Positions 25,866 to 64,000 of a stretch of 64,000 bases of DNA are shown here, one piece after another. Under the pieces are notes generated by a model, which saw nothing but the letters and a program-made list of their open reading frames with translations, searched no databases and was not told the DNA's origin. Positions within the stretch are counted from its first letter, which is position 1, and each line of letters opens with the position of its first letter. A program made the translations under genes and the position numbers. This DNA is from an uncultured delta proteobacterium (GTDB lineage Bacteria; Desulfobacterota; Binatia; Binatales; Binataceae): assembly GCA_963842085.1 (NCBI GenBank), contig CAWJET010000001.1, forward strand, positions 2,496,001-2,560,000, read 5' to 3'.

Positions 25866-25878
25866 GCGATGGCGAACG

Positions 25879-26103: not shown

Positions 26104-26187
26104 CCGCGGGCTCCTTACCGTCCGGTTGCAAAGCAAACTTATCAAGATGTCCGAACGGGCTCCAGCATCGCGTTGGCCTAGCCGAAC

Positions 26188-26242
26188 CTGACAGAAATAT
26201 CTGTTAAGATTACTTGACAGAGCCCGCTGACAGAGCTAAGCT
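26188..26242 (+). promoter_or_regulatory. Sigma70-type promoter with TGACAGA operator-like repeats
   Basis: TTGACA (26214-19)-17 bp-TAAGCT (26237-42); TGACAGA at 26189, 26215, 26228; imperfect palindrome TGACAGA-aata-TCTGTTA. Confidence 0.65.
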
Positions 26243-26348
26243 TCGTACTGGAGGATCTACAGTAAAGAGCCCCGCGAACTTGGCTTTGTGAAGACAGATC
26301 TCTGGGATCCTGACGACGATTTAGGATCAAAACCGCTAAGGAGCATTC

Positions 26349-26720: not shown

Positions 26721-26744
26721 AGCCGCAGTCGTAAGCAGCAAGCG

Positions 26745-28353: not shown

Positions 28354-28359
28354 ACCGTC

Positions 28360-28857
28360 ATGCAGGAATTTTTCGGCTTTCGCAATTTCCGCCAGTTCGA
28401 GCGTACCCACCGAGAGCTCAAGCTGCCCTACGAGCTGTTGAACGACCTTCGCTTCCGTCAGCTGCCCGATGCCCACAAAGCCCACCTGCTCTGTCTGCTG
28501 CTGCTCTCGGCACGAATGAACAATCTGCTGCCCAACTGTCCGGTCAAGCTGGAGCGGTTGATAGGGGCGACCGAGCCGTTGGACTTAAGCGCCTTCGCCG
28601 ACTTCGTCGACTTCGCCGTGCTGGAAAAGCCGACCTGGCAGGACCGCGTTGCGAACCGGCGGGTGCCCGACAGCATGCGCGCGGCAGTGCTGGTGCGCGA
28701 CGGCGGACGCTGCCGAAAGTGCAGGAGGGCGATCCAGCTGGAGATGGATCACATCGTTCCGGTCAGCAAGGGCGGCAAGACCGAAGAATCGAACCTTCAG
28801 ACGCTCTGCCGGCGCTGCAACCGGGCCAAGTCCAGGAAGCTGGTTCCCGGGCTCTGA
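28360..28857 (+). CDS. HNH endonuclease with N-terminal phage replication-initiator-like domain
   Basis: RDGGRCRKC...LEMDHIVPVSKGG..ESNLQTLCRRCN; N-terminus LKLPYELLNDLRFRQLPDAHKAHLLCLLLL. Confidence 0.88.
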   Translation: MQEFFGFRNFRQFERTHRELKLPYELLNDLRFRQLPDAHKAHLLCLLLLSARMNNLLPNCPVKLERLIGATEPLDLSAFADFVDFAVLEKPTWQDRVANRRVPDSMRAAVLVRDGGRCRKCRRAIQLEMDHIVPVSKGGKTEESNLQTLCRRCNRAKSRKLVPGL

Positions 28858-31748: not shown

Positions 31749-32026
31749 CTACAAAATAATGCTTGGGGGGCTCTTGACGTTACGTTGTGTTTTCTGCAAG
31801 ATCGGGCGCGATTTCGGAGGGCTGAGTGAATTGGGGGGGCTTTTGGCTAGACTTGAACGAAGGCGATTAGAGAGAAGTCCATAGCCACCGCTATAAATAA
31901 TGTTCTGCCGGGCTCTTGACTGCACGTTGTGTTTTCTGGAAGATTGTGCGCCATATAGCGGGGCAGAGTGAATTGGGGGGCTTTTAGCTAGACTTGAACG
32001 AAAGCGATTAGGGAGGAGACTCAATG
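31749..32026 (+). promoter_or_regulatory. Tandemly duplicated (142-bp period) promoter + leader upstream of the NHL gene
   Basis: TTGACG-17-CAAGAT at 31774 and TTGACT-17-GAAGAT at 31916, each followed by GAGTGAATTGGGGGG..CTAGACTTGAACGAA.GCGATTAG. Confidence 0.75.
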
Positions 32027-35000: not shown

Positions 35001-35917
35001 CGGTGGTGCTAGGCCAGGAAGGGTTCTCGGACTGTGGCTGCAACGTGCCTAACGACGCCGATACCGGCGATTGCGGTCTTGAGGACATCGGCTACGAGAG
35101 CGGGCCTGGTGCGAATACGCTCTGCGGACCGACGGGTCTCGGCTTCGACGGCGGCGGCAACCTGTACGTTGCAGACATGTTCAACAACCGGGTCCTTGGC
35201 TATGCCGATGCCATCGTCAACGAGGAGAACGCCACGCTGGTGATCGGACAGCCGAACTTTAGCACGGCAGTATGTGACGTAGATGCAGATGCCGCTTTCT
35301 TTAGCAGCGTCATCAATGATGACCTCCCGACCTTCCTGCCCAGTGACGTGGCGTCTTCGACCACGCAGTGTCTGCCAACGTTCGTTGCGCTTGACAGGCT
35401 GCAGGATCTGGTGGTCTCCGACGCCGGCAACAACCGTGTGTTGAAGTACGACGGGCCGTTGTTCCCATCGGTGGTGCCAACGCCAACGCCTACGCCAATT
35501 GCGCCCACGCCGACGCCTACGCCGACGCCGACGCCAATCGGGCCCACGCCCACGCCGACGCCAATCGGGCCCACGCCAACGCCGACAGCTACGCCTACGC
35601 CGGTAAATGCGGTCTTAGCATTGTCGCCGGGGGATCAGACGGCCGGTAAGGTAAAGAAGGGCCACACCAGTACGGTGACGTTGTCGCTGATGAATACGGG
35701 TACTGCCACAGCGACAGGGGTGAGCGTAGTGCCCCTCGCACCCCCGTTCTCCGTGGCAGGGACCACGTGTGGTACGACCCTCGCTGCCGGAACAACGTGC
35801 ACAATCCACGTGGCGTTCTCGCCGACGAAGAAAGGGAAGTACTCGGCCACAGTGACGGTGGACAGTACCAATGGCGGGTCTCCGGTGGCTACGGTGACAG
35901 GCAAGACGCCGAATTGA
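32024..35917 (+). CDS. Large secreted NHL-repeat (beta-propeller) protein with Pro/Thr linker and C-terminal Ig-like (ASH/choice-of-anchor D-like) domain
   Basis: Signal peptide; many P.G.AVD..GNLYVAD..NNRV repeats with VLGQ.DF spacers; PTPTP linker; TCGTTLAAGTTCTIHVAFSP; GGAGG RBS. Confidence 0.88.
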   Translation: MVRGKCGRVSLVAGFSVATATALLFALLHWTTGIGPRSAEAAVASPATLSHGVFSADAVLGQGGAMTPEDFTQFGANQGQDMIAAMALPTGTAVDGSNHLWVVDFGNSRVLGYTNASAFTNGQPAAIVLGQPDFYSGLCNISDHDGVIDSFFGVQMLTSQETLCGPTGVAVDGGGNVFVSDTLNNRVVEFNNPWSSGMTAGQPADVVFGQTDFTRNFCNGAEGAFGSPSSESLCFPLGIATDTAGNLYVADTLNFRVLQYLDPLGNEPNTIGPNAHFVYGQDSFVSTDDCTAVTETMTGVENRCYTTPSTTWTCTSAVTTGCPAGYIFDGMDSLCHPLSGTGGPAIPPLALCGGVPFFAANCLDFPIAVATDPVTGALWITNNDGDYDYADDVYHYASTTATVSDFQLNATGPTWANGEPEFSGTHDAGGVAVDTGGNLYITDIADNEVLEFPNHQHPGPGITTCDTPDAELGNFPPTGGGNPLVAPDLSPGGLSETLDCDEYFVSTGTPTFVEPNEFFEGFGFPYQNNVCFSFDLSFIAPPDVTVKPDIPVNENGFDWLPFVALDKDGNAYVSDPLNNRVMRFNLGINGSGGNAGGELGQVDFQHFNFNLASFLTFGRGIVNYTNQTGIASLGEDIFFTIFDIGDGEITGTIPKGSAAFHASSSASLPLGGKKTHTFASFDLNALAKKDSNGNLPATASGGVTFPANMPMDAVAVDSTTQPNGVYVSDAGNSRVLGWHNVESFANGSPADVVIGQGGGVEGDIGSFFAFSELEKFSTLDPFGSYLNSIDEGLAGCNNTLDGEPALDSLCFPMGIWVDGSGNLWVADTLNSRVMKFPSPLAAFHSKHQQSAFVASEFIGQPSPDDYFCDNTPLDVGSVFPAPTNPFSPNELCLPTSVSTDSSATNVFVADFYNDRVVQFVSPVTPYPAAVAVYGQNDLFSDDDCDDVTASYMCGPSDAKLDSGGNLWVTDFGFNRVLEFLHATPAPAIPPAASVVLGQEGFSDCGCNVPNDADTGDCGLEDIGYESGPGANTLCGPTGLGFDGGGNLYVADMFNNRVLGYADAIVNEENATLVIGQPNFSTAVCDVDADAAFFSSVINDDLPTFLPSDVASSTTQCLPTFVALDRLQDLVVSDAGNNRVLKYDGPLFPSVVPTPTPTPIAPTPTPTPTPTPIGPTPTPTPIGPTPTPTATPTPVNAVLALSPGDQTAGKVKKGHTSTVTLSLMNTGTATATGVSVVPLAPPFSVAGTTCGTTLAAGTTCTIHVAFSPTKKGKYSATVTVDSTNGGSPVATVTGKTPN

Positions 35918-40330: not shown

Positions 40331-42772
40331 CTAATACACGCTGCTACTGACTTGAGCGCTGTTATTTGATTGGTTGGGGTCAACCTGACTGGCGGCTACC
40401 GTCGCAGTGTTTGTGATCGTTCCAGACCGCGAGGGCGCCGTGACTGCGATCGTAACTTGCAGTGATGTCCCGGATGCCATGGTTCCCAGAGCACAAGTCA
40501 CATTCCCGCCTGAACTGGCGCACGTGGGTCCTCCAGGCAGCACCGAATTCACTATGACGCCGATCGGGAGAGTATCAAGCATTGTTACATTAGTTGCCGT
40601 AGATGGGCCGTGGTTGGCGACGGCAATGCTATATGTCAGAGGTCCACCCCGCCGCACTAAGCTCGAGGCCGTCTTAGTGATCGAAAGATCCGCTGTCGTA
40701 GAAGGTGTAGGAGTGGCAGTCGGAGTCGATGTCGCGGTAGGCGTGGCCGTGGCGGTTGGCGTAGCTGTGGGAGTGGTGGTGACTGTGGCCGTCGCCGTGG
40801 CAGTCGGCGTAGCTGCATTAGTCGGGGTGGGCGTTGGGGTGCTGGTCGGAGTGGGAGTCGGAGTGGTGGTGACTGTGGCCGTCGCCGTGGCAGTCGGCGT
40901 AGCTGCATTAGTCGGGGTGGGCGTTGGGGTGCTGGTCGGAGTGGGAGTCGGAGTGGTGGTGACTGTGGCCGTCGCCGTGGCAGTCGGCGTAGCTGCTTTA
41001 GTCGGAGTGGGCGTTGGCGTCCTTGTCGGAGTGGCCGTTGGGGTGCTGGTCGGAGTCGGAGTTGGTGTCCTGGTCGGAGTGGGGGTCGGGGTAGGCGAGG
41101 CCGCAAGTGCGTTGATCAGGCCGGTCCCGTTCGGACTGCCCCAGCCGGTCGCCAAATCGTAGCTGGTTACTGCCGGATAGCCGCCGTTACTGCCGCTCGT
41201 GATGTCGTGGAAATCGGTGGCATAGCCTGACCCCAGACCAAGCTGATAAATGGTCGGATTAATGAAGCCGAGCGGCTTCGAACCGTTGGCAACCGCCTGT
41301 TGATTGACCAGAGCCAGATAGCCGGCCCACATGGGCGCGGCAAAACTGGTCCCGCCCCAATAGTTTGCCGTGCAGGCCTTTTGGTCGGCACAGACGTAAA
41401 AGTCAAAATTGGATTCTGCCGCGACATCCGGGGAGTTGCGCAAACTCGTGGACCCCTCGTTGGTATTGGTGATCACACCGATGGGCTGCTGCCAGGTGGG
41501 AATCGGAATGGCGTCCGGCGTAAAATAGCCGCCGCCACCGTCGGCCCAAGAGGTTTCCGAACTCCAGGGGCCGCCCGCGCTGCTGGTCTGTAAGTCCGTA
41601 CCGCCGACCACCGTGACGTATGCATCATCCGCCGGGTAAACATAAGTGGAAGACGAGGTATAAGCGCCACTGTCGCCGGCCGCTTGGAACAGATTTTGAC
41701 CCTGCGCTGCAAACTTCTTGAAGAAGGGGTCGTCAGTGCTGGGGTCCGACGGGCTCCAGGTCCACGAAGAGCTCAATTGCGCATCCAGCTTTCCATTCGT
41801 GAGATGCGTAGACATGGAACTAAAAATGGCGGTATCGCTGGACCCCACGTACACATTCAGTGCGTTCAGGCCCGGAGCCATGGAGACCGCCTGAGTGATG
41901 TCAAGGGTCTGTTCGGTATCATCGCAGTTCTGAAGGCTTAGAAACTTACCGTAAACGCAGCTCAAGCTGGTCCCATCCGTGGAAATGCCATTGATAGGGA
42001 CATTGTTCGTCTGCTTGGCGTTCGTGAAGTAAGTGTTCACGTCGGCTATGTCATATCCGTAGTACTCCAACAGCCCGAGGGTCTGGCCATTTCCGGTGAG
42101 AGCCGTTCCTCCGTAGTAGGCCGCCCTCATATCGCTGCCGAGATAAGAGCGCGAAGGACCGGAGCCCTTAACAGCATTTGACTGCACACTCAGATTTCTA
42201 TGCACGGTGGCGGGATGCGGGATTGAATAGTTGTCCAAGCCCGAGATGTGCCACGGCCGGAACGGCAGGTTCACCGTGGGCTCCCGGTCCGGAGCGTAGA
42301 ATGTGCGGTTTTCCGTGGGGTGCTGGTAGACTCCCATGGTCACATGGAAGGCTCCCTCGATGGCCGCCACCGAGCCCGTGAGCTGCACGTCCATACCATC
42401 GCGGGAGCCGCCAACCACCGTAAAGCCGTTCGTTTTCGCGAAACCAATCACGGCGTCATAATCCTCCTGGCTGGGACCAAACCTCGCGGTAAACTCTTGC
42501 ACCGTAAGGAATTGCCGGTAGGAGGGGCTTGAAGGATCGTAGAGCTCCTGCAAGAAACTATCCAACTCTGCCTCGTTGCTCAGCGGCAGAACAATGTCGA
42601 TGTGCATGGCCTGCGTTGCGGGGAGCCGCCCGCGCAACGGCGCCTGCCCATTGAGAGTCACTTCACGCACCTGATGCGTCAACGGGGGCCATTCCCGCGC
42701 CTGGCAAACCATATTCGTGCTCGACACCATCACGAAGAGGGTGAGCAAAAATACACTCAATCTTCGAATCAC
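40331..42772 (-). CDS. S53 (sedolisin/kumamolisin) peptidase with prodomain, Pro/Thr linker and DUF11-like C-terminal domain
   Basis: [14 protein letters not shown] prodomain, [29 protein letters not shown]; ADLSITKT...DPNQSNN. GTG start at 42772 inferred from the signal peptide. Confidence 0.92.
40771..41010. repeat. 90-bp in-frame tandem repeat in the S53 linker
   Basis: Units begin GAGTGGTGGTGACTGTGGCC at 40771, 40861 and 40951; the first two are identical. Confidence 0.9.
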
Positions 42773-43021
42773 GATTTTCCTTTCAGCCAGAATTTCCGTT
42801 TTCAGGCGAATGTTTACCCGGAATTTCCAATATCCGCATCGTGCCCCTTGACAATAATTGCACATCGTTCGTTCCTGGAGCAAGCAAACACAAAGAAATC
42901 GACGCTTCCGAGCACTATTTCGTGCATAAAGGTCGGGCAACTGGCGGACCCGAATCATGCCGCGGCCAAGCACAAATGGCCCAGCGTCGAGATTCAGCAT
43001 ATTGCGGACCCGCTCGTCGAG

Positions 43022-54375: not shown

Positions 54376-55329
54376 ATGCCGACGCACCCAATTCGATTTG
54401 GCCTTCAAACCGGTCAGCAACTCGTGGACTGGAACGAACTGAAAGAGCTATGGCGCAGCGCCGACGGTTGGGGTTACGACTCGCTCTGGACCTTTGATCA
54501 TTTCTATCCAATCTTCGTTCCCGACCCGACCGGACCGTGCCTTGAAGGATGGACCACGCTCACCGCGCTCAGTCAGCAGACCAAGCGCGCGCGAATCGGC
54601 GCAATGGTAAACGGCAACACTTATCGCAACCCGTGCATCACGGCAAAGATGGCGGCGACGCTCGATCACGTCAGCGACGGCCGTCTGAATCTCGGCATCG
54701 GCGCGGGATGGTTCGAGCTCGAGCATCGCAGCTTCGGCATTGACTTCAAGACGATTCCCGGACGGCTGCAGGCGCTCGACGAATCGCTGCAAATTATCAA
54801 AGGGATGTTCGAGCAGGAAAAAACAACTTTGCACGGGCGCCACTACAACGTGACCGACGCGGTCTGCAGTCCGAAGCCCATCCAGAAGCCGCATCCACCA
54901 ATCATGATCGGCGGCCAGGGCCAGAAGGTATTGCTAAAAATCGTCGCCAAGCACGCTGACATGTGGAACGTCCCGGGCGCGAGCGCAGAACGATACGCCG
55001 AACTGTTGAAAGTGATCGAACGACACGGCGACACCGTCGGCCGCGACACTGATCAGATCGAGAAGACGATCATGATGGGGTTGTGCTATCGAGCGCCGGC
55101 GGAGCGAGAAAACGCCGCGCTCGCGCGAGTTGCCGCGATGTCGGGTGCCTCGGCCGAGCAAGCGCGCCGCCAGCTAATGATCGGCTCGCGCGAGGAATGC
55201 CTGGCGACGATCGATCGCTACGTCAAGGTTGGCGTCACGCACTTCATCTTCACGCTGCCGCGGCCGTTCTTCGCGGATGAAGTTCAGCGCTTTGCCGAAG
55301 AGGTGATTCCCGCGGTGCGCCCGAACTAG
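54376..55329 (+). CDS. LLM-class F420-dependent oxidoreductase
   Basis: GYDSLWTFDHFYP, LEGWTTLTAL, NTYRNP..AKMAATLDHVS.GRL.LGIGAGW, PKPIQKPHPPIMIGG; AGGAGG RBS. Confidence 0.93.
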   Translation: MPTHPIRFGLQTGQQLVDWNELKELWRSADGWGYDSLWTFDHFYPIFVPDPTGPCLEGWTTLTALSQQTKRARIGAMVNGNTYRNPCITAKMAATLDHVSDGRLNLGIGAGWFELEHRSFGIDFKTIPGRLQALDESLQIIKGMFEQEKTTLHGRHYNVTDAVCSPKPIQKPHPPIMIGGQGQKVLLKIVAKHADMWNVPGASAERYAELLKVIERHGDTVGRDTDQIEKTIMMGLCYRAPAERENAALARVAAMSGASAEQARRQLMIGSREECLATIDRYVKVGVTHFIFTLPRPFFADEVQRFAEEVIPAVRPN

Positions 55330-56111
55330 CGCGCGGTGAGCAACACGCAGTCGGCGGCGTCGGCGTGGGCAGCGTCGAAGGGTGCTGCGATTCCAGCAAA
55401 TGCGCCCGAGTCGAGGTCGCGCTCCAGCTCGGCCAGTCCGCTGGCAACTCCTGCGCTCGCCAGGCGCCGAAATCCGGAAGTCGAGGCACGGAACCCGGGA
55501 TCGAACAGGAGGTCGGGCCGCGTGCGTGCCGCTTCAAAGGTAAGGTCGCCCCGCCCCGAGTAAAAGATCTTCGCTGCCGCGACGCGTGAAAATCCAGCGT
55601 GAAACATCGCAGTGATCAGGCCGCCGAGCGTCGGATGAAGCGGTAGCAGCACCTCGTCGATCTCGGGAAAATAATGGCGATACCACAGCGTCTCGAGGTT
55701 CTCGCGGACGACCGCCTGCAGCACGGCGGCGGCCCGCGCCACACGCCTGAATTCGGCGAGCACGGCCGCAAGAACCGGGAGATGGTGCAATACGTTGACT
55801 CCGGCGACCGCGTCCACCGAGCGCGGGCGAAGCGGGAGCGACGATGCGTCAGCGAGAATCCATCGCGCCGACGCCTTCCGCGCGCCGATTTCAACCATCG
55901 CAGGCGACCGATCGAGCGCAATCACCGAAAATCCGCTCGCCGTCAATGCGCCGGTGTAATTCCCAGTGCCGGCGCCGACTTCGAGTACGGATCTAACGCG
56001 TAAGTGCCGCAGGACTTCGACCAGCGCGACAGCAATCGCGGGCTCGACGCCCCGCGAATTGTCATACCCGGAGACAACTGGTCCATAGTTAATGGAAGTC
56101 GGAACTGGCAC
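55326..56111 (-). CDS. Class I SAM-dependent methyltransferase
   Basis: VLEVGAGTGNYT, ALDRSPAM, ADASSLPL..SVD, VLHHL. Confidence 0.88.
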   Translation of the reverse strand: MPVPTSINYGPVVSGYDNSRGVEPAIAVALVEVLRHLRVRSVLEVGAGTGNYTGALTASGFSVIALDRSPAMVEIGARKASARWILADASSLPLRPRSVDAVAGVNVLHHLPVLAAVLAEFRRVARAAAVLQAVVRENLETLWYRHYFPEIDEVLLPLHPTLGGLITAMFHAGFSRVAAAKIFYSGRGDLTFEAARTRPDLLFDPGFRASTSGFRRLASAGVASGLAELERDLDSGAFAGIAAPFDAAHADAADCVLLTAR

Positions 56112-56298
56112 CGCAAAAACTCAATGAGGTGTTCAAAACAGACGATGCGCTCCCGGCAGGTGTGAGGCAAACGGCCCCAATGTTGGGGGTGTTCTGAATC
56201 GCGCCATACAGACTGCTAATGACGTCGACGTGAGTCTTTCTCGCCACCGCCGGCTTCGCTAATCTGCTATTTCCGTCGGCGGCAGTGCGCGATGGAGA

Positions 56299-56374
56299 GC
56301 CACCCTAGCTCAGTTGGTAGAGCAGCTGATTCGTAATCAGCAGGTCGCCGGTTCGAATCCGGCGGGTGGCTCCA
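56299..56374 (+). tRNA. tRNA-Thr (anticodon CGT)
   Basis: GCCACCC acceptor stem pairs with GGGTGGC; D-arm TAGCTCAGTTGGTAGAGC; GCTGA-TTCGTAA-TCAGC; GGTTCGAATCC; encoded CCA; 76 nt. Confidence 0.98.
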
Positions 56375-56439
56375 GAAAACCCCACGCAGAGAACGAGTTC
56401 AACTCACCGAAGCAAAACGCTTGCCCACAAAAGCCAATC

Positions 56440-57522
56440 TATTGGTGCTTGCATAATATAGATACATATGCTAGCCTACTGACATGGGTAATCCAGCAGG
56501 AGTGCGGCGGGACTTCGAGGCACTGGAACGGCGGCGGATGGAGGCGGCGCGATTGCTCAAGCAGGGCGTGAGCCAGAGCGAAGTGGCTCGGCGCCTTGGC
56601 GTGCACCGGCAATCGGTGATCCGCTGGGCGCGGCAGCTGGCGCAGGCGGGCCGGGTTGGTTTGAAGAAGGCGGGTCGCGCCGGACGCAGGCCCAAGCTCG
56701 GGGCTGGCCAACTGCGCAAGATCGAGCAAGCGCTCAAGCGCGGGCCCGAGGCCCTCGGATACCCCAACGGGTTGTGGACTGCGGGTCGGGTGCGCGAGCT
56801 AATCGAAGGGCAGACCGGAGTGCAATATCACGAGGCCCACGTCTGGCGCATTCTGCGCAAGTTGGGCTGGAGCTGCCAGCGTCCGAGCGGGCGGGCCTTG
56901 GAGCGTGACGAGCAGGCCATTCGGCACTAGAAGCAGTACCGTTGGCCGCAGATTAAAAAAAAGCGTTCTGCGAGAGGCGCACCATCGTCTTCATCGACGA
57001 GAGCGGATTGAGCGAACGGCCCCATCGCTGTCGCACCTGGGCGCCGCGCGGGCAGACCCCGGTACTGCAGTACCACTTCAACTGGAAGACGCTGTCGGCG
57101 ATGGCGGGAGTGAGCTGGTGGAATTTCTACTTTCGGCTCTTTCCCGGCGCCATTCGCAGTCCGCAAGTGGTGGAGTTCCTGCGCCATCTGATGCGCCATC
57201 TGCGGGGCAGGCTGCTGATTGTTTGGGACGGCTTGCGCGCCCATCGCAGTCGCCTGGTGTGGGACTTTGTTCGCCACCGGCGCGGGCGGCTGTGGCTGGA
57301 ATTTCTTCCCGCCTATGCACCGGAACTCAACCCGGTCGAGTACCTGTGGTCGCACTGGAAACAACACCAACTATCCAACTTCTGTCCGCAGACCTTCGCC
57401 CAGTTGAGCCACCACGCGCGCCGCGCACTCACACGCATGCGCCGCCGGCCCGCTCTGGTCATGGCCTTCTGGGAGCAAGCCGAACTGTTCCCCTTGTAAC
57501 TATATTATACAATCCTCAAATA
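56440..57522 (+). mobile_element. IS630-family insertion sequence
   Basis: Imperfect TIRs TATTGGTGCTTGCATAATATAG / revcomp TATTTGAGGATTGTATAATATAG with TA ends; HTH ORF plus DDE ORF. Confidence 0.9.
56484..57499 (+). pseudogene. IS630 transposase (HTH + DDE joined by an A9 frameshift) with premature amber codon
   Basis: ERRRMEAARLL, WTAGRV, LGWSCQRP; TAG at 56928; A9 at 56955-63; VFIDESG, VWDG..HRS, LPAYAPELNPVE. Confidence 0.85.
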
Positions 57523-58713
57523 AGTATTTCAGTGGAGACGGACGTGGGAGACGGGAGGGTGTAGGGGGGCGAGCCTGCGACTGGATGGCCGGGTGACCCC
57601 CACGCCTTTCCAGTCGCGACATGCACCGGGAACGAGAGGTAAGCGGGCAGCTACGGCAAATCCAATGGCCCGCGCTCTTGCAACTCGTGGTCGATCGAAC
57701 GGCGCGGTTTTTGGAGAGGGTAGTCCGCGGGCCAGAGTGGACAAAATTTAAGGAGGCGGCGCCTCAGTTTTCCAAGGCGCGAGGATCTTGCCTGGTTTAT
57801 CTCAGGTTTCCAATACCGGATTCCAATCGACCTGGTTGGCAGCATCCTCGCGCCCTCCCAGTCCATTCACACCTTTCATCCCGCTCATCCGAACCGCCCG
57901 CTTCCTATGGGCAGCAATGAATGTGCCACGAGCGATTGGTAAATAACGCTCCGAATAGGCGGCGCGCTCCTGCTATCAATCAGCCGATAGCTACAAATTG
58001 TAGAATTACTGCAACGATGTGTCGCTAACGCTACTTATCTTGATTGCGATGACCGACTTTTACGGAACGGGTGGCTGAGAGCCCGCGGGCTGGAAAGGCA
58101 ATGGTCTTCAGCACTTACTTGATTCGCCAGTACAGAGTTTCCTTCGGCCAGGGCATCACGAACAGATCGAGAAGAGACGATGCTCGACTGTTCGGCTCGG
58201 GCGATGCGGTCATTTGGCGCCGTGCCGAGCTTCGGGATGCGCGGAGCGTCGCCGAGCCCGCGCCGAGATGCCAGCAGTCGATCCGACGTCAACGTTGAAC
58301 CGATTGCGCAACTGGGCGGAAGCCCCTTCGGGCCTACTCGCTAACGGCCGGCTGTTTCCAGACTGGTGAAGGTTGACCTACGGCGAGCCGATCCCACTCG
58401 CGCCGCTCTCTCAACGGTCGCGCCGCATGGAGAGTGAGCGCTCGTGGACGACGCATACCGTGTGTCAAGCAGCTATCGATAACCGCTATCGGGTGGTTCC
58501 TGGCGAATCGGTGGAACTGCCGTCCGCATGATGGTGGATCAGCTTCCATTTGCCCTCTTCGAGCCGGAAGATGTTGGTTGCGCGTTGATAGTAACAGAGG
58601 CTTATGCGGCTTCAACTCTCACCTGTTTCGTGTCTCGCCATTGCAAACCGACTCTTCAGAATAGCTATGGCGATTGAGATTTTCGCCGCGCGTGAGCTAT
58701 AAGGGAATTGGGT

Positions 58714-58926
58714 TTAGTCGGTGAACACTTCCAGTCCAGCCTTTCCCAGCGTTGTCAGAGCTGCCGCCTTATCAAACGGATTAACAAGAACCACCGCGCA
58801 GCCGTTAGCGATGCCGCCTGGACGAGCGGAGAAGATACGCGACTGATGGAGAACAGTGCAGGCGTGCGCGACGAGTCCATCGGATGGGTGGCCTGCGGGG
58901 TCGGGCGGTCGTACGAAGATTCTCAT
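58714..58926 (-). CDS. Small hypothetical protein (~70 aa)
   Basis: MRIFVRPPDP..CAVVLVNPFDKAAALTTLGKAGLEVF; GAGG upstream; weak support. Confidence 0.4.
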   Translation of the reverse strand: MRIFVRPPDPAGHPSDGLVAHACTVLHQSRIFSARPGGIANGCAVVLVNPFDKAAALTTLGKAGLEVFTD

Positions 58927-59166
58927 GCCTGAGACCTCAGAGATTAGATACGCAGGAACGTACCAGCGGCTCAAGTTAATGACAAGAGTACGACCTCGCA
59001 ATCACAGCTTACGAACGTACGAAATAAACGAACTGTCAGGGTCTAAATGAGGACTTTGCGTCTCTACGCCCGTCCCTTCGAGGGCAACGTGTCGTTGGCG
59101 ACTCGGTCATCGGCGAGCCAGCGCAGGGAGTGCGCCAGCGCCGCGCCGCCGTTCTCGCGTACCCAC

Positions 59167-59285
59167 CACCCTGATATCCGGGCGCCAAGGGCTCGCCACC
59201 CATCGATGCCTGGGAATGGATGGTGCACTGTCGTACAGCCGGTGCGGTACTCTTTAGGGAAGTGTGGAGAAGGGAGGGTGTGAGG
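59167..59285. repeat. ~135-bp repeat family, copy 1 (partial)
   Basis: CACCCTGATATCCGGGCGCCAAGGGCTCGCCACCCATCG...GGATGGTGCACTGTCGTACAGCCGGTGCGGTAC. Confidence 0.8.
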
Positions 59286-59315
59286 TCGTCCGGAGCATGA
59301 TTGAGCTTGCGGGTG

Positions 59316-59466
59316 GAGTTATTGTCAAATGTTGTGGATCCGCCGGTCATGATCAGGCGGCTTCCCTTGGTTGACTGTGAGTTGATTGGATAAGGTGATT
59401 GGCCGGATCGACTTGGACACCATCGGCGAACTTCACCCCGGCACGAATCAGCGGCAATAGCTCCAG
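59316..59466 (-). mobile_element. IS256-family extreme C-terminal remnant and terminal repeat
   Basis: ELLPLIRAGVKFADGVQV...REAA* followed by ATCCACAACATTTGACAATAACTC. Confidence 0.7.
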
Positions 59467-59487
59467 TCTGGAGTTGTGGTGAATGAA

Positions 59488-59665
59488 GGATGGTACGTTG
59501 TGGGACAGCAGCACGGTTAGTATTTCAGCGAAGACAGGCAAAGAACAGAAAAGGGTAAGGTCACCCGGATATCCGGACGCCAGAGGCTCGACCTCCCATC
59601 CATGCCTGCTGGGTGTACGACGTGACTATTCCGGCTTGAGACGAACAGAAGCGGGAGGGGCTGAT
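59488..59665. repeat. ~135-bp repeat family, copy 2 (tail of one unit + head of the next)
   Basis: TATTTCAGCGAAGACAGGCAAAGAACAGAAAAGGGTAA|GGTCACCCGGATATCCGGACGCCAGAGGCTCG. Confidence 0.85.
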
Positions 59666-59727
59666 CTCGCTCATAGACGATGAGACATTGGATCATCCAT
59701 GGAGCCTTTCATCGTCGGCAGGCGTTT

Positions 59728-60177
59728 CTATTTTTTCTGTATCGTCTCGACGTAACGAACGATCTCGGTAATTCTCTGTTTTACCGCGGCGTCGTTCTCA
59801 GGAGTGAGCTGGTGGCCTTGGTTCTGGAGATACGTGCCCCAGAACGGCATCGCGAACCGCTTGTGCGAATCCATCATTCCTCGGCCGTCGACTATCCGAT
59901 ACACCTTCTCGAAGGGGAATTTACCACCGTTCCTCGAGCTGATGTCAGTGAGGTCCGGTGGATTCGTCTCTGTAAGGTCTCTTCCTTTTCCAGTACCGTC
60001 AGTTCCGTGACAGGGAGCGCAAAGCTGTTCGAAATCATGTTTGCCGGTAGACTGGCTGACGGCGCTCGTTCCGCCACCAAATACCACAAGAAGACAGGCC
60101 ATCGCACCAATCGCTGCTGCAGAAAGAGCTTGCCGAATTGACCGTCTTGTGATGCTCACCTCGGTTCGTCGGTTCAT
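59728..60177 (-). CDS. Monoheme c-type cytochrome
   Basis: Signal/TM; GKHDFEQLCAPCHGTDGTG, PPDLT..RNGGKFP, MPFWG axial Met. Confidence 0.92.
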   Translation of the reverse strand: MNRRTEVSITRRSIRQALSAAAIGAMACLLVVFGGGTSAVSQSTGKHDFEQLCAPCHGTDGTGKGRDLTETNPPDLTDISSRNGGKFPFEKVYRIVDGRGMMDSHKRFAMPFWGTYLQNQGHQLTPENDAAVKQRITEIVRYVETIQKK

Positions 60178-60251
60178 CTGGTTCACGTTCGCCTCACCTG
60201 TCGAAAGCTGCTCGTAGAAATAATGTGACAAATCGAACGCTCCGGCGAGGG

Positions 60252-60387
60252 GGTCACCCAGATATTCGGGCGCCAGAGGCTCGCCCCCCATCGACATGCG
60301 GATGGTGCACTTCCCGGAGGGTGCGCTCTGGTACACCCGGTGCGGTAACTATTTCAGCGAACACGGGCAAGAACAGAAAAGGGTAAC
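60252..60387. repeat. ~135-bp repeat family, copy 3 (full unit)
   Basis: GGTCACCCAGATATTCGGGCGCCAGAGGCTCGCCCCCCATCG...GGTGCGGTAACTATTTCAGCGAACACGGGCAAGAACAGAAAAGGGTAA. Confidence 0.9.
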
Positions 60388-60495
60388 TTGCCGTCGGATC
60401 AGCTTGCGTACCCCCTCTCTAGGGGTTGCCTCTTCCACCCCCGCGCAGAGAGTGCCTGCTTCAATCCCTCTATAGCAAATGGTCTCGTTGCACCA

Positions 60496-62807
60496 TCAGG
60501 GAAGGTCCGGCGAGATCGATGCTATCGACTGTCTCAGGGCCTTCAACTGGTTATAGATCCCCACCAGCTTCCCGCGATTGCGCTGATTTGCGGCCTTCTT
60601 CAACTCGACCTGGAGGTTCTTTGCCTGGGTCTGAACGGTGAGGTAATTGTCCGGCACGGTCACGTGCGCGCCCGCAATGACGCGGTCAACGTCGCCAAGA
60701 TCCGAGGTGCAGTTGAGGACCGGTACTGTAATGGGCAAGCCGGCATCAATTCGATTGATGGAATCGTCCACCAGCCGCTCGCAATCGGCGATGCTGTATA
60801 CGGTGCTCAACGCGCGCAGGAAGAACCCGATCTGATTCAATACCTGCTGCGTGTCGCCGCCGGTATAGGTGCTCGCCAGGCTGTTGAGCGAAAAGGCGCC
60901 GCAAGAAGGAATCCCCCTTGGGCAATTTCTGCCTGTTGGGACAGCAGTATGCGCCACGCCGGCTACCGATTGGTCGAAGGCAGGGCTGAAGTAGAACGAC
61001 GCGGCATCCTCGATATTGGTGGCGATTCCGCTGTCGTGGAAGAACGCATTCTTGCGAGGGGCTTCGATGATCGACTGGATATTAAAGTCGCCCTGAACCG
61101 CTCCCGGATCCTGCGGAATCACGACCGGGGAAACCACCTCGTTTAGCGCAAGCGAGCCACCGGAGCCCGAAAAACTGGCGAACGGATCGCCAAGATCCCT
61201 CAAGCCGTCTGCATTAGTGTCTGAGATAAAGTTTCTTCCCGCTTTGCCCAGCCGTTGACTAGCGATTCCAAGATTGAGCCAGGTGATTTCGTTATCTACC
61301 ACCGTGTCTCCGATCACGGTTGGCCAAGCCGGCTCGACCGCGCCAGAAGTCCCAACAGCACCGGCGCTGCTGGTGTAGGCGAGGAAGAGATACGGATTGG
61401 TCGAATCGGTCGGCGTTACAACACCCCATACCATATCGGTCGGTGAGCCGATCGCCGGGATGTACGTCTGATCTGGCTGCCATGTCGTCGAGACATTTTC
61501 CGGGCTGACGACCAGCGCCGGCGCTACAGCCGGCACTCCGAGATCGTCACCGATAGTGTCCTGTGCTCCGCCGTTGAAGTGGCAGAGATTACAGCTCGCA
61601 CGGCTGTCGAGAAAGATTGCCTTGCCCGTCTCCGCAACAGCGTCGTTGAAGGTGATTACGCTTTGCGAGAATGAAGTCTGAGTTCCGTTCCTGCCTGTGG
61701 CGAAAGCGCTGGCCGAGAACTGCGCGCCCGTGCAAATCGCCGAGGGAGCCGAGTTGGAACAGAGCGCGAGTTCGAATTGGCGGCCTAGGTATTCCTGGAA
61801 TGCTGCCATCGCGTCGAGTTCGGCGGCAGTTGGGCATCGAAAATCGGGGCCGGGAACCCGGTTCAGCTGCGCGTAAAATGTTTGCGGACCGCGCCAAGTG
61901 AAAATGTCCGGAGCGCAAGCGTGAGATCGGTCGGACGCGCCGCAAACTCATTGATCGCGTCAACGCAGTCGGCGTTCTTCGGAGAATTGGCAATTATCGA
62001 CGGATCGATCAGGGCACCGTCTCCACCCCATCCAAGTTCAATATCCCGGGTGCCGTCGTCGGCGACGCCTCCTCCGATAGCTGCACCCGGACAAGGTGCA
62101 GCAACTATCATGAAGCCGCCGCTGCCTGTGCCCGAGGTCACCGACGCGAAAGTGAACTGCGTCGCCGAGAGCACGCCGGAGGCTGTAGTAGGCGCGATCA
62201 GGCCAGTTACCGTTGCGGTCGCATTGAATCCATCAATCGAATTGTTTTCGAATGAGATTGTCTCTCCTTCGAAAAGCTCCATGGGTTCGATCATCGTCAC
62301 GGTAGCAGTCGCACCGTCGCCCGTGATCGAGGAAACCACCCCGGAATTCACGCAGAGGTTCGAGGTCGTAAACGCCAAACCTCCGAGCGCCATCGAAGCC
62401 CGGAGCGGACCTTCGGGGTTGTTGACGTTGCCCGGGGGTCCGTTCGCGATGTTGAACAACGTTAGCTTCTGAACTGTCGTCGGGTTTTCAAGATTCGGGT
62501 TCTTAGTCGCCAGAACCAGGTTCCTGTCGTGAGCACTCATCGAGGCGAGGTCCGAGGGAGCCAGGCCGTAGTCGTGCTCGGGTATATGGCAGGTCTTGCA
62601 GGTGCGGCCGTTGCCGTTGAATGTTTCCTGGGTGAAAAGCTTGAATCCCTTATCGATCAGCTTCGCGCTTTTTACGTCGAACGCCCACGCGCTTCTCGGG
62701 GTAATCGTCCCCAGAGCCAGCAAAACCAGGGCATCGAATGTGAGGATCCACCGCCACGTGGTTTGCCTCGCGACTGTTTCACGGAAAGAAGTTAGTGCCG
62801 TCTGCAT
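60496..62807 (-). pseudogene. Diheme cytochrome c peroxidase/MauG-superfamily protein, split by a 1-nt frameshift at ~61863
   Basis: GFKLFTQETFNGNGRTCKTCH; ETGKAIF..SCNLCHFNGG; FNIQSIIEA..FFHD; adding one base gives the continuous read KHFTRSLNRVPGPDFRCPTAAELDAMAAF. Confidence 0.8.
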
Positions 62808-63149
62808 TTTCAACGCAAATCCTCCTGTTCCGGACAGGCACGCCGATCCCCGCACTGAGCGTTGAACGTGGCCGCGACCCCGAGCGCCAACTGCACGGAG
62901 TTTCCCCGAGCGCGAACATAGCAGGCGCCCACAGATAGGCAAAACGGACGCAGCCTTGAATAACCATCATTTGAGTCTCCAAGAAGTCGTTTCCGGCGGC
63001 TACACTGCGATCAGTTTTCTTTAAGCAGCAAGGGTGAAGATTTTCACGAGCATCGGGACGAGAGCAAGCCTGGTTCCAATCCGCCCCGTAGTGCAACTCG
63101 CTCACCATCGATCTCTGAAGGGGTGCTCACAGCAAGGATGGTCAGGCGT

Positions 63150-63405
63150 GGTCACCCGGATAATCCGGCGCCAGGGGCTCACCCCCCATCGATCCGCGGA
63201 TGCGCGCACTTCCCGGAGGGTGCACTGTCGTTCAGCGGTGCGGTAACTATTTCAGCGAAGACGGGCAAGAACAGAAAAGGGTAAGGTCGCCCGGATATCC
63301 GGGCACCAGGGGCTCGCCCCCCGTCGGTGTGTGGATGATGCACCCGGTGCGGTAACTGTTTCAGCGAGGATGGGCGCGGACATGGGGAGGGAGGTGCTGA
63401 CTGGG
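63150..63405. repeat. ~135-bp repeat family, copies 4 and 5 in tandem
   Basis: Full unit 63150-63284, then an internally shortened unit from 63285 with perfect palindrome CCCGGATATCCGGG (63290-63303). Confidence 0.9.
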
Positions 63406-63675
63406 GTTGGCCCCGGCTGGCGTTCTCGTGCGCCGGCCCGTTCTTTTTCCCGATTGCGGCGAGTATCTATCCGGGGGCTTATGTGCTACACGACGATCAG
63501 GAAGCAGGCTGCGTCGAACATCCGAGGCACATTAGGCTCTCGCAGAACGGAGCCGGGAACCTCGGGCGCACAACCTGCTTTTTCGACGTCAAATACCGGG
63601 TCACAGCAGCGAGCGCAGCGGTGTGGCGGCGCTGTTTTAGCAAACACGGTGATGAAAAGCCGCGCTCGGCGTTCG

Positions 63676-63915
63676 TCAGACGTCGCGAATCATGTGCGAG
63701 ATCCAGACCAAGATGACGGCACCGATGGTCGCGATGACGATGCCACCGATCAAACCGTTGGGTCCGGGAATGCCGAGCGCGCCGAATAGCGAGCCGCCGA
63801 CGAGGCCTCCTATCAGGCCGAGTATGAGATCGCCGATTAATCCGAAACCTTCGCCATGCACGAGCTTGCCGGCCAGCCAGCCCGCGATAATTCCGACTAC
63901 GATCCAGTAAAGCAT
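63676..63915 (-). CDS. GlsB/YeaQ/YmgE family (transglycosylase-associated) membrane protein
   Basis: WIVVGIIAGWLAGKLV.GEGFGLIGDLILGLIGGLVGG..IVIATIGAVILVWI; GAGG RBS. Confidence 0.93.
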   Translation of the reverse strand: MLYWIVVGIIAGWLAGKLVHGEGFGLIGDLILGLIGGLVGGSLFGALGIPGPNGLIGGIVIATIGAVILVWISHMIRDV

Positions 63916-64000
63916 CGTGGGGTCCTCATTGCATTTTTCTCGAAGTGATCTGCACTCGCATTGGTAGCGACCTCTGGATGGCACATCCTGCGCGCGGTCA

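What the first reader, a model, noticed from the sequence alone, without database searches (positions are those of the whole stretch)
59167..63405. Unexplained ~135-bp structured repeat family punctuating a co-oriented gene array
Seen: about six full or partial units at 59167, 59488 (tail+head), 60252 and 63150 (two in tandem), all in one orientation, separating minus-strand genes (glsB-like | diheme protein | cytochrome c | IS256 remnant | small ORF). Each unit has a palindrome CCCGGATATCCGGG, CCATC..GATGG and GTGCAC..GTGCAC hairpins, and a conserved asymmetric tail GGTGCGGTAACTATTTCAGCGAAGACGGGCAAGAACAGAAAAGGGTAA. Copy 3 changes both palindrome arms (CCCAGATATTCGGG). It is not CRISPR-like, lacks attC ends and has no TIRs. 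Inference: recombination sites of a cassette-capture system, a portable promoter/leader RNA (minus strand has TTGCCC-17-TACCGC), or a new tandem-forming mobile repeat in a tRNA-linked island.
Basis: partly seen in the sequence, partly recalled or inferred. Interest (0 to 1): 0.78.

Follow-up and report, generated by a model that had tools for sequence, protein, structure and literature searches.

The report
Clustered 135-base intergenic repeat family
A non-coding stretch of about 105-135 bases is repeated six to eight times between a few genes next to a tRNA gene; the repeat is real, but it looks like an ordinary, partly decayed bacterial intergenic repeat, not a new gene-capture system.

Summary
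The repeat is real. Six units lie on the + strand between 59165 and 63396 (nhmmer E 3e-38 to 2e-13). A head pattern hits 5 times against 0.01 expected. There are also three marginal fragments, one of them an inverted head at 57564-57606. No copy lies in the other 57 kb of the window.

"Structured" is not supported. Folds are no more stable than shuffles (z -0.95 to +0.95), and at most 1 of 17 (+ strand) and 0 of 21 (- strand) predicted pairs covary.

The repeat matches nothing known or public that I could search:
- no Rfam family;
- no attC core motifs, no GTAG tag, no long terminal inverted repeats or target duplication;
- no recombinase, reverse transcriptase or Y1 transposase among 149 ORFs, only an IS630-type transposase;
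- only a chance hit in 185,579 species genomes, and nothing in the plasmid and phage sets.

One 84-aa protein from another contig echoes three units in a different arrangement.

Best reading (0.42): a lineage-restricted intergenic mosaic repeat, spread locally by duplication and recombination and now decaying. Only the distal 38 nt of three tails is well kept (90-97%). Cassette capture, promoter/leader and sRNA readings remain possible but unsupported. Interest is low to moderate.

The parts
59165..59283 (+). U1: full unit with a head, a short middle and a degenerate G-rich tail
   Evidence: nhmmer E 3.3e-28. Head pattern match at 59167-59197. Alignment.
59284..59295 (+). 12-nt stub of a further head (GGTCGTCCGGAG) directly after U1
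   Evidence: Read from the sequence and from the alignment. Too short for statistics.
59488..59558 (+). U2a: 5'-truncated unit holding part of the middle and a well-kept A-type tail
   Evidence: nhmmer E 1.8e-13, model positions 63-133. Distal 38 nt are 90-92% identical to U3 and U4.
59559..59663 (+). U2b: short unit with a head and a degenerate tail, abutting U2a
   Evidence: nhmmer E 1.6e-18. Head pattern match at 59562-59592.
60252..60386 (+). U3: full 135-nt unit, solitary. It lies 65-74 nt upstream (on the gene strand) of the cytochrome c start.
   Evidence: nhmmer E 2.8e-38. 89% identical to U4 overall and 98% in the tail.
63097..63149 (+). Possible degenerate partial unit directly left of U4
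   Evidence: nhmmer E 0.19, model positions 29-70. Marginal.
63150..63284 (+). U4: full 135-nt unit, first of a tandem pair
   Evidence: nhmmer E 6.7e-37..
63285..63396 (+). U5: short unit with a degenerate G-rich tail, second of the tandem pair
   Evidence: nhmmer E 5.4e-23..
57520..57563 (+). U0: probable tail fragment abutting the right end of the IS630-type element
   Evidence: Two collinear short matches, 15 of 17 and 15 of 16 (D5 and D20). nhmmer gives only E 12. Weak.
57564..57606 (-). Inverted partial head
   Evidence: 36 of 46 aligned positions match the reverse complement of the U3 head plus its left flank, E 7.5e-4 pairwise. nhmmer E 2.3 on the whole window.
59728..60186 (-). Cytochrome c gene lying between U2b and U3
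   Evidence: Pfam Cytochrom_C and Cytochrome_CBB3. 110 homologues, most of about 138-141 aa. The start is inferred from homologues and from the sequence.
60496..62813 (-). Two-haem cytochrome c gene (DHOR/RoxA/CCP-like), split by a frameshift near 61870-61930. It lies between U3 and U4.
   Evidence: Two CxxCH motifs. The three frames are shown. No Pfam hit.
63676..63915 (-). GlsB/YeaQ/YmgE-type small membrane protein gene, to the right of U5
   Evidence: Pfam Transgly_assoc 7.7e-10. NCBIfam PRK10457.
56442..57519 (+). IS630-type insertion sequence. Its transposase is in two frames. It has 25-nt terminal inverted repeats, with TA on both sides.
   Evidence: HTH_33 and DDE_3. Inverted repeat I2. 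Sequence.
56299..56374 (+). tRNA-Thr (CGU) at the left edge of the repeat-bearing stretch
   Evidence: ARAGORN. Rfam 72.1 bits.

Best explanation
The units are a lineage-restricted, low-copy family of non-coding intergenic mosaic repeats. Each has a 45-nt head with an imperfect palindrome, a middle of variable length, and a tail.

I think they multiplied at this one locus at the DNA level, by duplication and by unequal or illegitimate recombination between copies, and not by transposition or by a dedicated recombinase. Most copies are now decaying. This origin is inferred.

What is shown:
- the family exists;
- it is confined to about 6 kb of this window;
- it has tandem, truncated and inverted members;
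- it belongs to no searched family;
- it lacks the marks of attC sites, MITEs, REPs and known RNAs.

Also inferred, and weaker: the one well-kept part is the distal 38 nt of the A-type tails together with the head that follows it. This part may act in the transcript of the gene strand. There the head forms a G+C-rich hairpin directly followed by a U-rich run, which could pause or end transcription or protect a 3' end between genes.
For: Clustering. There are 6 strong units and 3 marginal fragments within 57520-63396, and none elsewhere in 64 kb.

No dispersal seen. The head pattern hit one chance site in 185,579 species genomes. There was no blastn match in 72,556 plasmid or 50,697 phage records. 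A phmmer search of 1.84 billion representatives with the open + frame found only one credible echo, P0001. The - frame found none.

Array-type anatomy.
- There are two abutting pairs, U2a-U2b and U4-U5.
- A 12-nt head stub follows U1.
- A degenerate partial unit lies left of U4.
- U2a is 5'-truncated.
- An inverted head lies next to a tail fragment.

Rearrangement between relatives. P0001 comes from a different 13.6-kb contig. It reads the U2a-like tail with the same left flank, then a head with a long middle, then at once another head. No such order exists in the window.

Decay.
- Tails are 45-69% identical apart from U3-U4.
- Palindrome positions vary without compensation.
- The surroundings are degraded: a frameshifted two-haem gene, a two-frame IS630 transposase, and 1.5 kb without any recognisable gene.

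No enzyme for the rival mechanisms. The 149 ORFs of at least 100 aa include no integrase, resolvase, reverse transcriptase or Y1 transposase.

Local duplication of similar size occurs elsewhere in the window. There is a roughly 142-nt tandem duplication at 31760-32043, about 85% identical.

For the transcript role. At the U5/U4 junction the - strand forms a hairpin of -16.6 kcal/mol (z -1.8; 12 of 200 shuffles fold as well), followed directly by UUACCCUUUUCUGUUCUU. The distal 38 nt of the three A-type tails are 90-97% identical, against 64-82% for the 33 nt before them. P0001 keeps 14 of 14 residues across this part.
Against: Adjacent units are not the most alike. U4-U5 are 75% identical, while U3-U4, 2.9 kb apart, are 89%. 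Heads are about equally diverged in all pairs (79-86%). This star-like pattern fits copies of a master element better than recent tandem duplication.

Only 64 kb of the source genome could be searched, so dispersed copies elsewhere are not excluded. The source genome was not among the hits.

The well-kept 38-nt tail could reflect gene conversion and not function.

The terminator reading is weak.
- The scan found 3 terminator-like sites in 58000-64000 against 5.9 expected from shuffles. Only one lies at a unit junction, at 59566-59553 on the - strand.
- The U5/U4 junction misses the scan's U-run rule by one U.
- Solitary heads (U1, U3, U4) are not followed by U-rich sequence.
Confidence: 0.42

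Rival explanations
1. The units are a non-autonomous mobile element (MITE-, REP- or PATE-like). It is moved by a transposase encoded outside the window, and it inserted repeatedly into intergenic DNA here.
For: - Heads are about equally diverged in all pairs (79-86%), and distant U3-U4 are closer than adjacent U4-U5. Copies of a master element would look like this.
- The units are intergenic, carry hairpins and are modular.
- A related contig carries units in another arrangement.
- The short ends TCACCC...GGGTAA match as inverted repeats at 5 of 6 positions (read).
Against: - There is no target duplication at any of the 4 arrays, and no terminal inverted repeat longer than 6 nt.
- There is no GTAG tag, and CGTC occurs only sporadically and not beside the palindrome.
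- There is no Y1 or other matching transposase among the 149 ORFs. The IS630 ends do not resemble the unit ends.
- No copy lies in the other 57 kb of the window.
- There is only a chance hit in the species-genome collection.
Confidence: 0.2
2. The units are a portable regulatory module read on the gene (-) strand. The tail would hold a promoter, and the middle and head would form a leader or operator for the downstream cytochrome genes, in the manner of Neisseria REP2.
For: - U3 lies 65-74 nt and U4 about 335 nt upstream of the cytochrome c and two-haem gene starts, in the same orientation.
- On the - strand the columns AA.AGT.AC of the tail are invariant in 5 of 5 units. In U3 and U4 this reads TGAAATAGT, which resembles an extended -10 (my reading).
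- The head is an imperfect 24-nt palindrome that could bind a dimer (read).
- REP2 is 120-150 bp, has no terminal inverted repeats, has internal stem-loops and sits upstream of genes (PMC3184786, section 11 read).
Against: - The scan found 0 sigma-70-like sites in 58000-64000.
- TTGCCC-17-TACCGC matches 6 of 12 positions.
- No -35 lies at the right distance from AATAGT.
- The -12 GC of a sigma-54 site is absent (TATC in its place; recalled consensus, read).
- Distances to the start codons differ five-fold.
- U1, U2a, U2b and U0 precede no recognisable gene.
- Tandem and truncated copies are not expected of a promoter.
- The upstream extensions of the cytochrome c homologues P0005, P0007 and P0011 do not match the units above noise.
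Confidence: 0.12
3. The units are recombination sites that mark the borders of exchangeable DNA segments in an unrecognised cassette-shuffling system. Its recombinase would lie beyond the window.
For: - Units bracket four segments: 1.5 kb, 190 nt, the cytochrome c gene and the two-haem gene.
- The head is a 24-nt imperfect palindrome with a central AT (9 of 12 symmetric positions, read). Recombinase core sites often have this form (recalled).
- One head is inverted.
- The unit order differs in the contig of P0001.
- The stretch starts next to a tRNA gene.
Against: - No tyrosine or serine recombinase was found among 149 ORFs.
- No RYYYAAC or GTTRRRY motif occurs in any of the 6 units on either strand.
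- Two of the four 'cassettes' have no recognisable gene, and one gene is broken.
- Sites in use should stay intact, yet palindrome positions vary without compensation and units are truncated.
- The tRNA 3' end is not repeated.
Confidence: 0.07
4. The units are genes or parts of genes for small RNAs made from the + strand, antisense to the neighbouring genes.
For: - A terminator-like hairpin with a T run lies on the + strand at 63415-63448, 19 nt after U5, and no + strand gene precedes it.
- One + frame is open through the 135-nt units, which means only that this strand lacks stops.
Against: - No Rfam match at E<=1.
- The + strand folds are no better than shuffles: z +0.68, +0.95, -0.13 and +0.88 for single units, and +0.33 for U4-U5 with the terminator.
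- 1 of 17 pairs covaries.
- No promoter-like site was found.
- Terminator-like sites are not enriched: 3 found against 5.9 expected.
Confidence: 0.06

Closest known systems
Neisseria REP2 repeats
   Same: Both are 120-150 bp, have no terminal inverted repeats, carry internal inverted repeats, and lie intergenic, often just upstream of genes in one orientation (PMC3184786, section 11 read). Here the units are 105-135 nt with the same general build, and two of them lie upstream of genes.
   Different: [quoted passage not shown] Here no promoter-like site was found, copies form tandem pairs, and all lie within 6 kb.
Pneumococcal BOX elements and rhizobial/enterobacterial mosaic repeats (RIME, BIME)
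   Same: Both are modular and made of distinct sub-sequences, one of which varies in copy number or length. They are intergenic, transcribed with neighbouring genes, and partly decaying (BOX: PMC3184786, section 7 read; RIME and BIME recalled).
   Different: Those families have tens to hundreds of dispersed copies. BOX is thought to be moved by an insertion-sequence transposase. Neither high copy number nor mobility is shown here.
Mycobacterial interspersed repetitive units (MIRU)
   Same: Both are short units found as tandem copies in intergenic regions between co-oriented genes, with G+C-rich internal inverted repeats (PMC3184786, section 9 read).
   Different: MIRUs are 40-100 bp, occur about 40-50 times per genome, carry small ORFs in the gene direction that overlap the flanking genes, and show 4-nt direct repeats at filled sites. 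Here no frame is open on the gene strand and there is no target duplication.
REP elements (GTAG- or CGTC-tagged) with RAYT transposases
   Same: Both have a G+C-rich palindrome, lie between unidirectional genes, and have a possible role as RNA hairpins (PMC3733652, abstract read).
   Different: REPs are 20-40 bp, high in copy number and tagged by GTAG or CGTC at one end. Here the unit is 105-135 nt, GTAG is absent from all 6 units, and CGTC is not next to the palindrome. No Y1 transposase is in the window.
Integron attC sites
   Same: Both are imperfectly palindromic sites of 55-140 bp that separate co-oriented genes (recalled).
   Different: The inverse core sites RYYYAAC and GTTRRRY are absent from all 6 units on both strands. 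No integrase was found. Units lie upstream as well as downstream of genes, and also occur as tandem pairs.

Membership tests
Integron attC site | Inverse core sites R'' (RYYYAAC) and R' (GTTRRRY) at the two ends (consensus recalled) | tested here: not met
   0 matches to either motif in any of the 6 units plus or minus 10 nt, on either strand.
Integron attC site | Linked IntI tyrosine recombinase | tested here: not met
   No Phage_integrase hit among the 149 ORFs of at least 100 aa in the window. DNA beyond position 64000 was not seen.
MITE | Terminal inverted repeats and a target-site duplication | tested here: not met
   The ends match as inverted repeats at only 5 of 6 nt (TCACCC/GGGTAA). 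The flanks of the 4 arrays share no duplication.
MITE | Many dispersed copies in the genome | tested here: inconclusive
   No copy lies outside 57520-63396 in the 64-kb window. The rest of the source genome could not be searched.
REP / REPIN with RAYT | A 20-40 bp palindrome tagged by GTAG or CGTC at one end (PMC3733652, abstract) | tested here: not met
   GTAG is absent from all 6 units. CGTC occurs sporadically and not beside the palindrome. The unit is 105-135 nt.
REP / REPIN with RAYT; IS200/IS605-derived PATE | Y1 (HUH) transposase nearby | tested here: not met
   No Y1_Tnp hit among the 149 ORFs. Only the window was searched.
Known structured RNA (Rfam 15) | Match to a covariance model | tested here: not met
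   In 55000-64000 at E<=1 there is only tRNA-Thr and a sub-threshold match on its opposite strand. In the whole window at gathering score there is only the tRNA.
Structured RNA in general | Folding energy below shuffles, and compensatory changes in helices | tested here: not met
   z scores are -0.95 to +0.95 for 8 unit folds and +0.33/+0.60 for the dimer. Compensatory pairs number 1 of 17 and 0 of 21. All 500 of 500 shuffles reach the observed covariation score. Only 5 sequences were available, so power is low.
Diversity-generating retroelement (template/variable repeat pair) | Mismatches confined to adenines of the template, a variable repeat inside the 3' end of a gene, and a reverse transcriptase nearby (recalled) | tested here: not met
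   A sites changed at 38 of 75 site-copies, but non-A sites also changed at 45 of 223. The units are non-coding. There is no RVT hit among the 149 ORFs.
Neisseria REP2-like promoter-bearing repeat | Promoter, ribosome-binding site and ATG inside the unit (PMC3184786, section 11) | tested here: not met
   0 promoter-like sites in 58000-64000. The ATG inside the head has no Shine-Dalgarno sequence before it (read). The homologues of the cytochrome c start downstream of the unit.
Intrinsic terminator-like repeat (SPRITE-like) | G+C-rich stem directly followed by a U run | tested here: inconclusive
   The scan flags the U2b/U2a junction on the - strand (59566-59553), but sites are not enriched: 3 against 5.9 expected. 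The U5/U4 junction has a -16.6 kcal/mol stem followed by 4 U in the first 8 nt. Solitary heads lack the U run.
tRNA-linked genomic island | Direct repeat of the tRNA 3' end at the far border, an integrase, and deviating composition | tested here: not met
   The 25-nt tRNA 3' end occurs once at up to 3 mismatches. No integrase was found. G+C is 0.57-0.61 in 56-64 kb against 0.53-0.66 elsewhere. The right border may lie beyond the window.

The most novel reading that the evidence does not exclude
The heads, 24-nt imperfect palindromes with a central AT, would be crossover sites of an undescribed recombinase encoded beyond the window. This enzyme would shuffle, invert and delete the segments between units, including the cytochrome genes, next to tRNA-Thr. 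That would be a cassette system unrelated to integrons. The inverted head at 57564-57606 and the different unit order in the contig of P0001 would be its footprints.
Probability: 0.06. Interest if true: 0.75.

Novelty: new member of a known kind. Interest (0 to 1): 0.3.

Why it matters
As it stands, the finding adds one more lineage-specific intergenic repeat to a long list. Its practical value is small:
- it warns that the annotated start of the cytochrome c gene lies inside a repeat;
- it flags a rearrangement-prone stretch next to a tRNA gene.

It would matter more in two cases. The first is that the well-kept 38-nt tail plus head proves to be a working transcript element. The second is that related genomes show gene segments exchanged at the units. 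Both can be tested once the complete genome and its relatives can be searched.

Tried and rejected
1. Known RNA family. Rfam at E<=1 over 55000-64000 and at gathering score over the whole window found only tRNA-Thr.

2. tRNA-derived repeat or att site. The head loosely recalls a T-arm, but ARAGORN finds no tRNA-like gene there, and the tRNA 3' end is not repeated.

3. Protein-coding repeat.
- U3 and U4 differ by compensating indels in the middle.
- No frame is open on the gene strand.
- The Atlas score for the open + frame is 0.77 with low recognition.

4. Diversity-generating retroelement. The degenerate tails differ from the A-type tail mostly by A>G (27 of 52 A site-copies, against 1 of 18 for T>C). 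However, non-A sites also differ, the units are non-coding, and there is no reverse transcriptase. The bias can be explained by an A-rich purine tract drifting towards G in a G+C-rich genome, and by how purine runs align.

5. IS630-derived MITE. The terminal repeats of the IS do not resemble the unit ends. The shared 8-mer GTAACTAT lies inside the IS repeat and is matched by the left IS end, so I take it as chance.

6. Sigma-54 promoter on the - strand. The GG of the -24 element is present, but the -12 GC is replaced by TC in all heads (consensus recalled).

7. Copies in other genomes. Plasmids and phages gave nothing.

8. Protein 'echo' searches.
- P0002 is a chance match to a large repeat protein.
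- P0003 is a 236-aa ORF with a 52-aa period and about 30% identity. I treat it as unproven, because its score sums four near-identical stretches.

9. Unit echoes upstream of cytochrome c homologues. The long N-terminal extensions of P0005, P0007 and P0011 do not match the units above noise.

10. Gene remnants in 57.5-59.7 kb. No Pfam hit above noise and no NCBIfam hit.

Full report
**What is there**

Reading 58800-64000 and running the repeat finders confirms a family of direct repeats. A profile built from the units and run over the whole window with all filters off finds six strong members. All are on the + strand:
- U3, 60252-60386 (E 2.8e-38)
- U4, 63150-63284 (6.7e-37)
- U1, 59165-59283 (3.3e-28)
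- U5, 63285-63396 (5.4e-23)
- U2b, 59559-63 (1.6e-18)
- U2a, 59488-59558 (1.8e-13, tail half only)

A degenerate head pattern that fits all five heads occurs 5 times, against 0.01 expected. None of 100 shuffles reaches 5. U3 and U4 are exactly 135 nt. U1, U2b and U5 are 105-119 nt, because they lack 16-26 nt of the middle.

There are also three marginal pieces:
- a degenerate partial unit directly left of U4 (63097-63142, E 0.19);
- a tail-like fragment at 57520-57563, supported by two collinear short matches of 15 of 17 and 15 of 16, but only E 12;
- an inverted partial head at 57564-57606, which matches the reverse complement of the U3 head plus its left flank at 36 of 46 aligned positions (E 7.5e-4 in a 1.6 x 4.5 kb comparison).

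A 12-nt head stub follows U1. Nothing resembling a unit lies in the other 57 kb.

**Surroundings**

From left to right:
- tRNA-Thr lies at 56299-56374 on the + strand.
- It is followed by an IS630-type element at 56442-57519. This has HTH_33 and DDE_3 domains in two frames, 25-nt terminal inverted repeats and TA on both sides. It is not an IS256.
- From 57.6 to 59.2 kb, and again in 59.3-59.5 kb, no ORF has a Pfam hit above noise or any NCBIfam hit at E<=0.1 (31 and 26 ORFs).
- Three genes lie on the - strand. The first is a cytochrome c (59728-60186; Pfam). The second is a roughly 770-aa protein with two CxxCH motifs that resembles DHOR/RoxA/CCP-type cytochromes; it is split by a frameshift near 61870-61930. 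The third is a Transgly_assoc (GlsB/YeaQ-type) gene.

The 149 ORFs of at least 100 aa in the window were all scanned against Pfam across. The only enzyme of mobile DNA is the IS630 transposase. There is no integrase, resolvase, reverse transcriptase or Y1 transposase.

The tRNA 3' end is not repeated, and G+C does not shift. So an 'island' is not shown.

**Is it structured?**

- Eight single-unit folds on both strands give z scores from -0.95 to +0.95 against dinucleotide shuffles.
- The U4-U5 dimer with its downstream hairpin gives +0.33 and +0.60.
- Consensus folding of the five full units finds 1 of 17 (+ strand) and 0 of 21 (- strand) pairs with a compensatory change.
- On the - strand structure, all 500 of 500 column shuffles reach the observed covariation score.
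- The palindrome CCCGGATATCCGGG is perfect only in U5. The other heads break one or two pairs without compensation.
They give one A.C mismatch and one G.T pair.

With five sequences the power is low, but nothing supports a conserved RNA or DNA structure beyond short G+C-rich hairpins.

**Pattern of conservation**

Heads are about equally alike in every pair (79-86%). Tails are 45-69% identical, except U3-U4 at 98%. The tails fall into two states.
- U2a, U3 and U4 share an A-rich distal 38 nt at 90-97% identity. The 33 nt just before it are only 64-82% identical.
- U1, U2b, U5 and the fragment at 57520 have G-rich versions that match this 38-mer at only 23-26 of 42-46 aligned positions.

Relative to U3/U4, the degenerate tails differ mostly by A>G (27 of 52 A site-copies). 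T>C accounts for 1 of 18 and G>A for 7 of 37.

I considered adenine-directed mutagenesis of the retroelement kind and rejected it. Non-A sites also differ (45 of 223), the units are non-coding, and there is no reverse transcriptase. Drift of an unconstrained A-rich purine tract in a 59% G+C genome is enough to explain the bias.

The well-kept 38-mer is the one hint of constraint. Gene conversion could produce the same pattern.

**Distribution outside the window**

It has no further likeness to the unit and is a chance hit.
- The source genome did not appear in that scan.
- blastn found nothing in the plasmid and phage collections.

As a proxy I searched the protein collections with translations of the units, because gene callers sometimes call such frames.
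- The open + frame (63 aa) found one credible protein, P0001: 84 aa, 72-74% identity, on one 13.6-kb contig. It turned up both in the 5.8-billion-sequence index and among 1.84 billion representatives read in full.
- The - frame found nothing.
- P0002 is a chance match.
- P0003 is a 236-aa ORF with a 52-aa period. It aligns at about 30% identity with the same landmarks, but its score sums four near-identical stretches. I regard it as an untested lead.

Compared with the window, P0001 reads as follows:
- first, the U2a-like tail together with U2a's own left flank;
- next, a head with a long middle;
- last, with no tail in between, another head carrying the same G-to-T variant as U1.

So a related genome has units at what appears to be the same junction, in an arrangement that does not occur in the window.

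**Relation to the genes**

On the gene strand, U3 ends 65-74 nt before the cytochrome c start, and U4 ends about 335 nt before the two-haem gene start. U5-U4 and U2b-U2a lie after the glsB-like and cytochrome c stops.

The window's own annotated cytochrome c (P0004, 187 aa) starts at an ATG inside the U3 head. Of the 20 best other hits, 16 are 123-144 aa and begin near 60153-60186. The annotated start is therefore probably wrong, and the unit is non-coding.

The long N-terminal extensions of three homologues (P0005, P0007, P0011) do not match the units above noise. Whether orthologues carry a unit upstream remains unknown.

The promoter scan finds no site in 58000-64000. The terminator scan finds 3 against 5.9 expected. 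One lies at the U2b/U2a junction on the - strand. Another lies on the + strand at 63415-63448, just after U5.

At the U5/U4 junction the - strand forms a hairpin of -16.6 kcal/mol (z -1.8), followed directly by a U-rich run. This just misses the scan's rule.

**Explanation**

I commit, at 0.42, to this reading. The units are a lineage-restricted intergenic mosaic repeat that multiplied locally by duplication and recombination between copies, and that is now mostly decaying. They sit in a degraded stretch that also holds a broken gene, a two-frame IS and 1.5 kb of unrecognisable DNA.

Four things count for it:
- the tight clustering;
- the tandem, truncated and inverted members with degenerate array edges;
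- the differing arrangement in P0001;
- the absence of every mark of transposition or site-specific recombination that I could test.

Two things count against it. The divergence of the heads is star-like, and adjacent units are less alike than distant ones. Both fit a mobile element better (rival, 0.20).

A role in the transcript of the gene strand, as a hairpin plus U run at tail-head junctions, is my best guess for why the 38-nt tail is kept. It is inference only.

The other readings have nothing positive beyond position and shape:
- promoter/leader, 0.12;
- cassette recombination, 0.07;
- + strand sRNA, 0.06.

**Comparison with known kinds**

In size, lack of terminal repeats, internal hairpins and position upstream of genes, the units most resemble Neisseria REP2 (PMC3184786, section 11 read). 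In modular build and tandem copies they resemble BOX and MIRU (same paper, sections 7 and 9 read), and also RIME and BIME (recalled).

They fail the defining features of attC sites, MITEs, tagged REPs (PMC3733652, abstract read) and template/variable repeat pairs, as listed in the membership table.

A full-text search for the 14-nt palindrome found no paper. A search for Acidobacteria, intergenic repeat and palindromic listed only general repeat literature. I did not establish the source organism. The only taxon name seen was on a distant (42%) cytochrome c homologue.

**Verdict**

It is of an ordinary kind and is not demonstrably structured, mobile or recombinogenic. I rate it a new member of a known kind, with interest 0.3.

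Noticed in passing
window 59728-60336 (-): The window's own annotated cytochrome c (P0004, 187 aa) starts at an ATG inside repeat unit U3. Of the 20 best other homologues, 16 are 123-144 aa and begin near 60153-60186. The annotated start is probably about 45 residues too far upstream.
   Followed up: yes
window 61870-61930 (-): The two-haem cytochrome c gene (60496-62813) is split into two frames, so it is either a pseudogene or carries a sequencing error. The downstream frame continues upstream as ...AELDAMAAFQEYL.
   Followed up: partly
window 56442-57519 (+): An IS630-type element lies 67 nt after tRNA-Thr. It has 25-nt terminal inverted repeats (80% complementary) and TA on both sides. Its transposase lies in two frames (HTH part 56484-56930, DDE_3 part 57008-57499). 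Its right end abuts a tail-like fragment of the repeat.
   Followed up: partly
window 59243-59290, 59622-59663, 63355-63396: The degenerate tails differ from the well-kept A-type tail mainly by A>G on the + strand: 27 of 52 A site-copies, against 1 of 18 for T>C and 7 of 37 for G>A. This may be compositional drift of a purine tract, but the asymmetry is striking.
   Followed up: partly
window 63415-63448 (+): A 9-pair terminator-like hairpin with a T run lies on the + strand 19 nt after U5. No credible + strand gene lies upstream, and on the - strand it has no U run.
   Followed up: no
window 31760-32043 (+): A tandem duplication of about 142 nt (about 85% identical over 120 nt) lies directly upstream of the 1297-aa NHL-repeat protein gene (32024-35917). 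Each copy contains CTCTTGAC, which resembles a -35 element.
   Followed up: partly
window 3470-3505 and 3619-3654 (+): A 36-nt motif is repeated at 94% identity, 149 nt apart, in the region around 3440-3740. This lies beside the 3' part of the ORF 3213-3608 (-) and the start of an IclR-type regulator ORF on the - strand (3777-4559). Its meaning is unknown.
   Followed up: no
window 40770-41034 (within the gene 40331-43000, -): A 90-nt in-frame tandem repeat (2.9 copies, 97% matches), with shorter 24- and 48-nt periods nearby, lies inside a pro-kumamolisin/DUF11 protein gene.
   Followed up: no
window 19282-28857: A patch of phage- or plasmid-like genes: terminase small subunit, ArdC N-terminal pieces in two frames, BrnT toxin, ERF and YqaJ recombination proteins, an HNH endonuclease, and fragments of a type I methylase (HsdM_N, N6_Mtase). 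It looks like a decayed prophage or integrated element.
   Followed up: no
protein P0003 (representative library): A 236-aa ORF is made of 4.5 copies of a 52-aa (156-nt) unit. It aligns at about 30% identity with the translated repeat and shares landmarks (SG.RG, RCG, ED, R.SGY). It could be a distant tandem-repeat relative in another organism, or it could be chance. Its DNA could not be fetched.
   Followed up: partly
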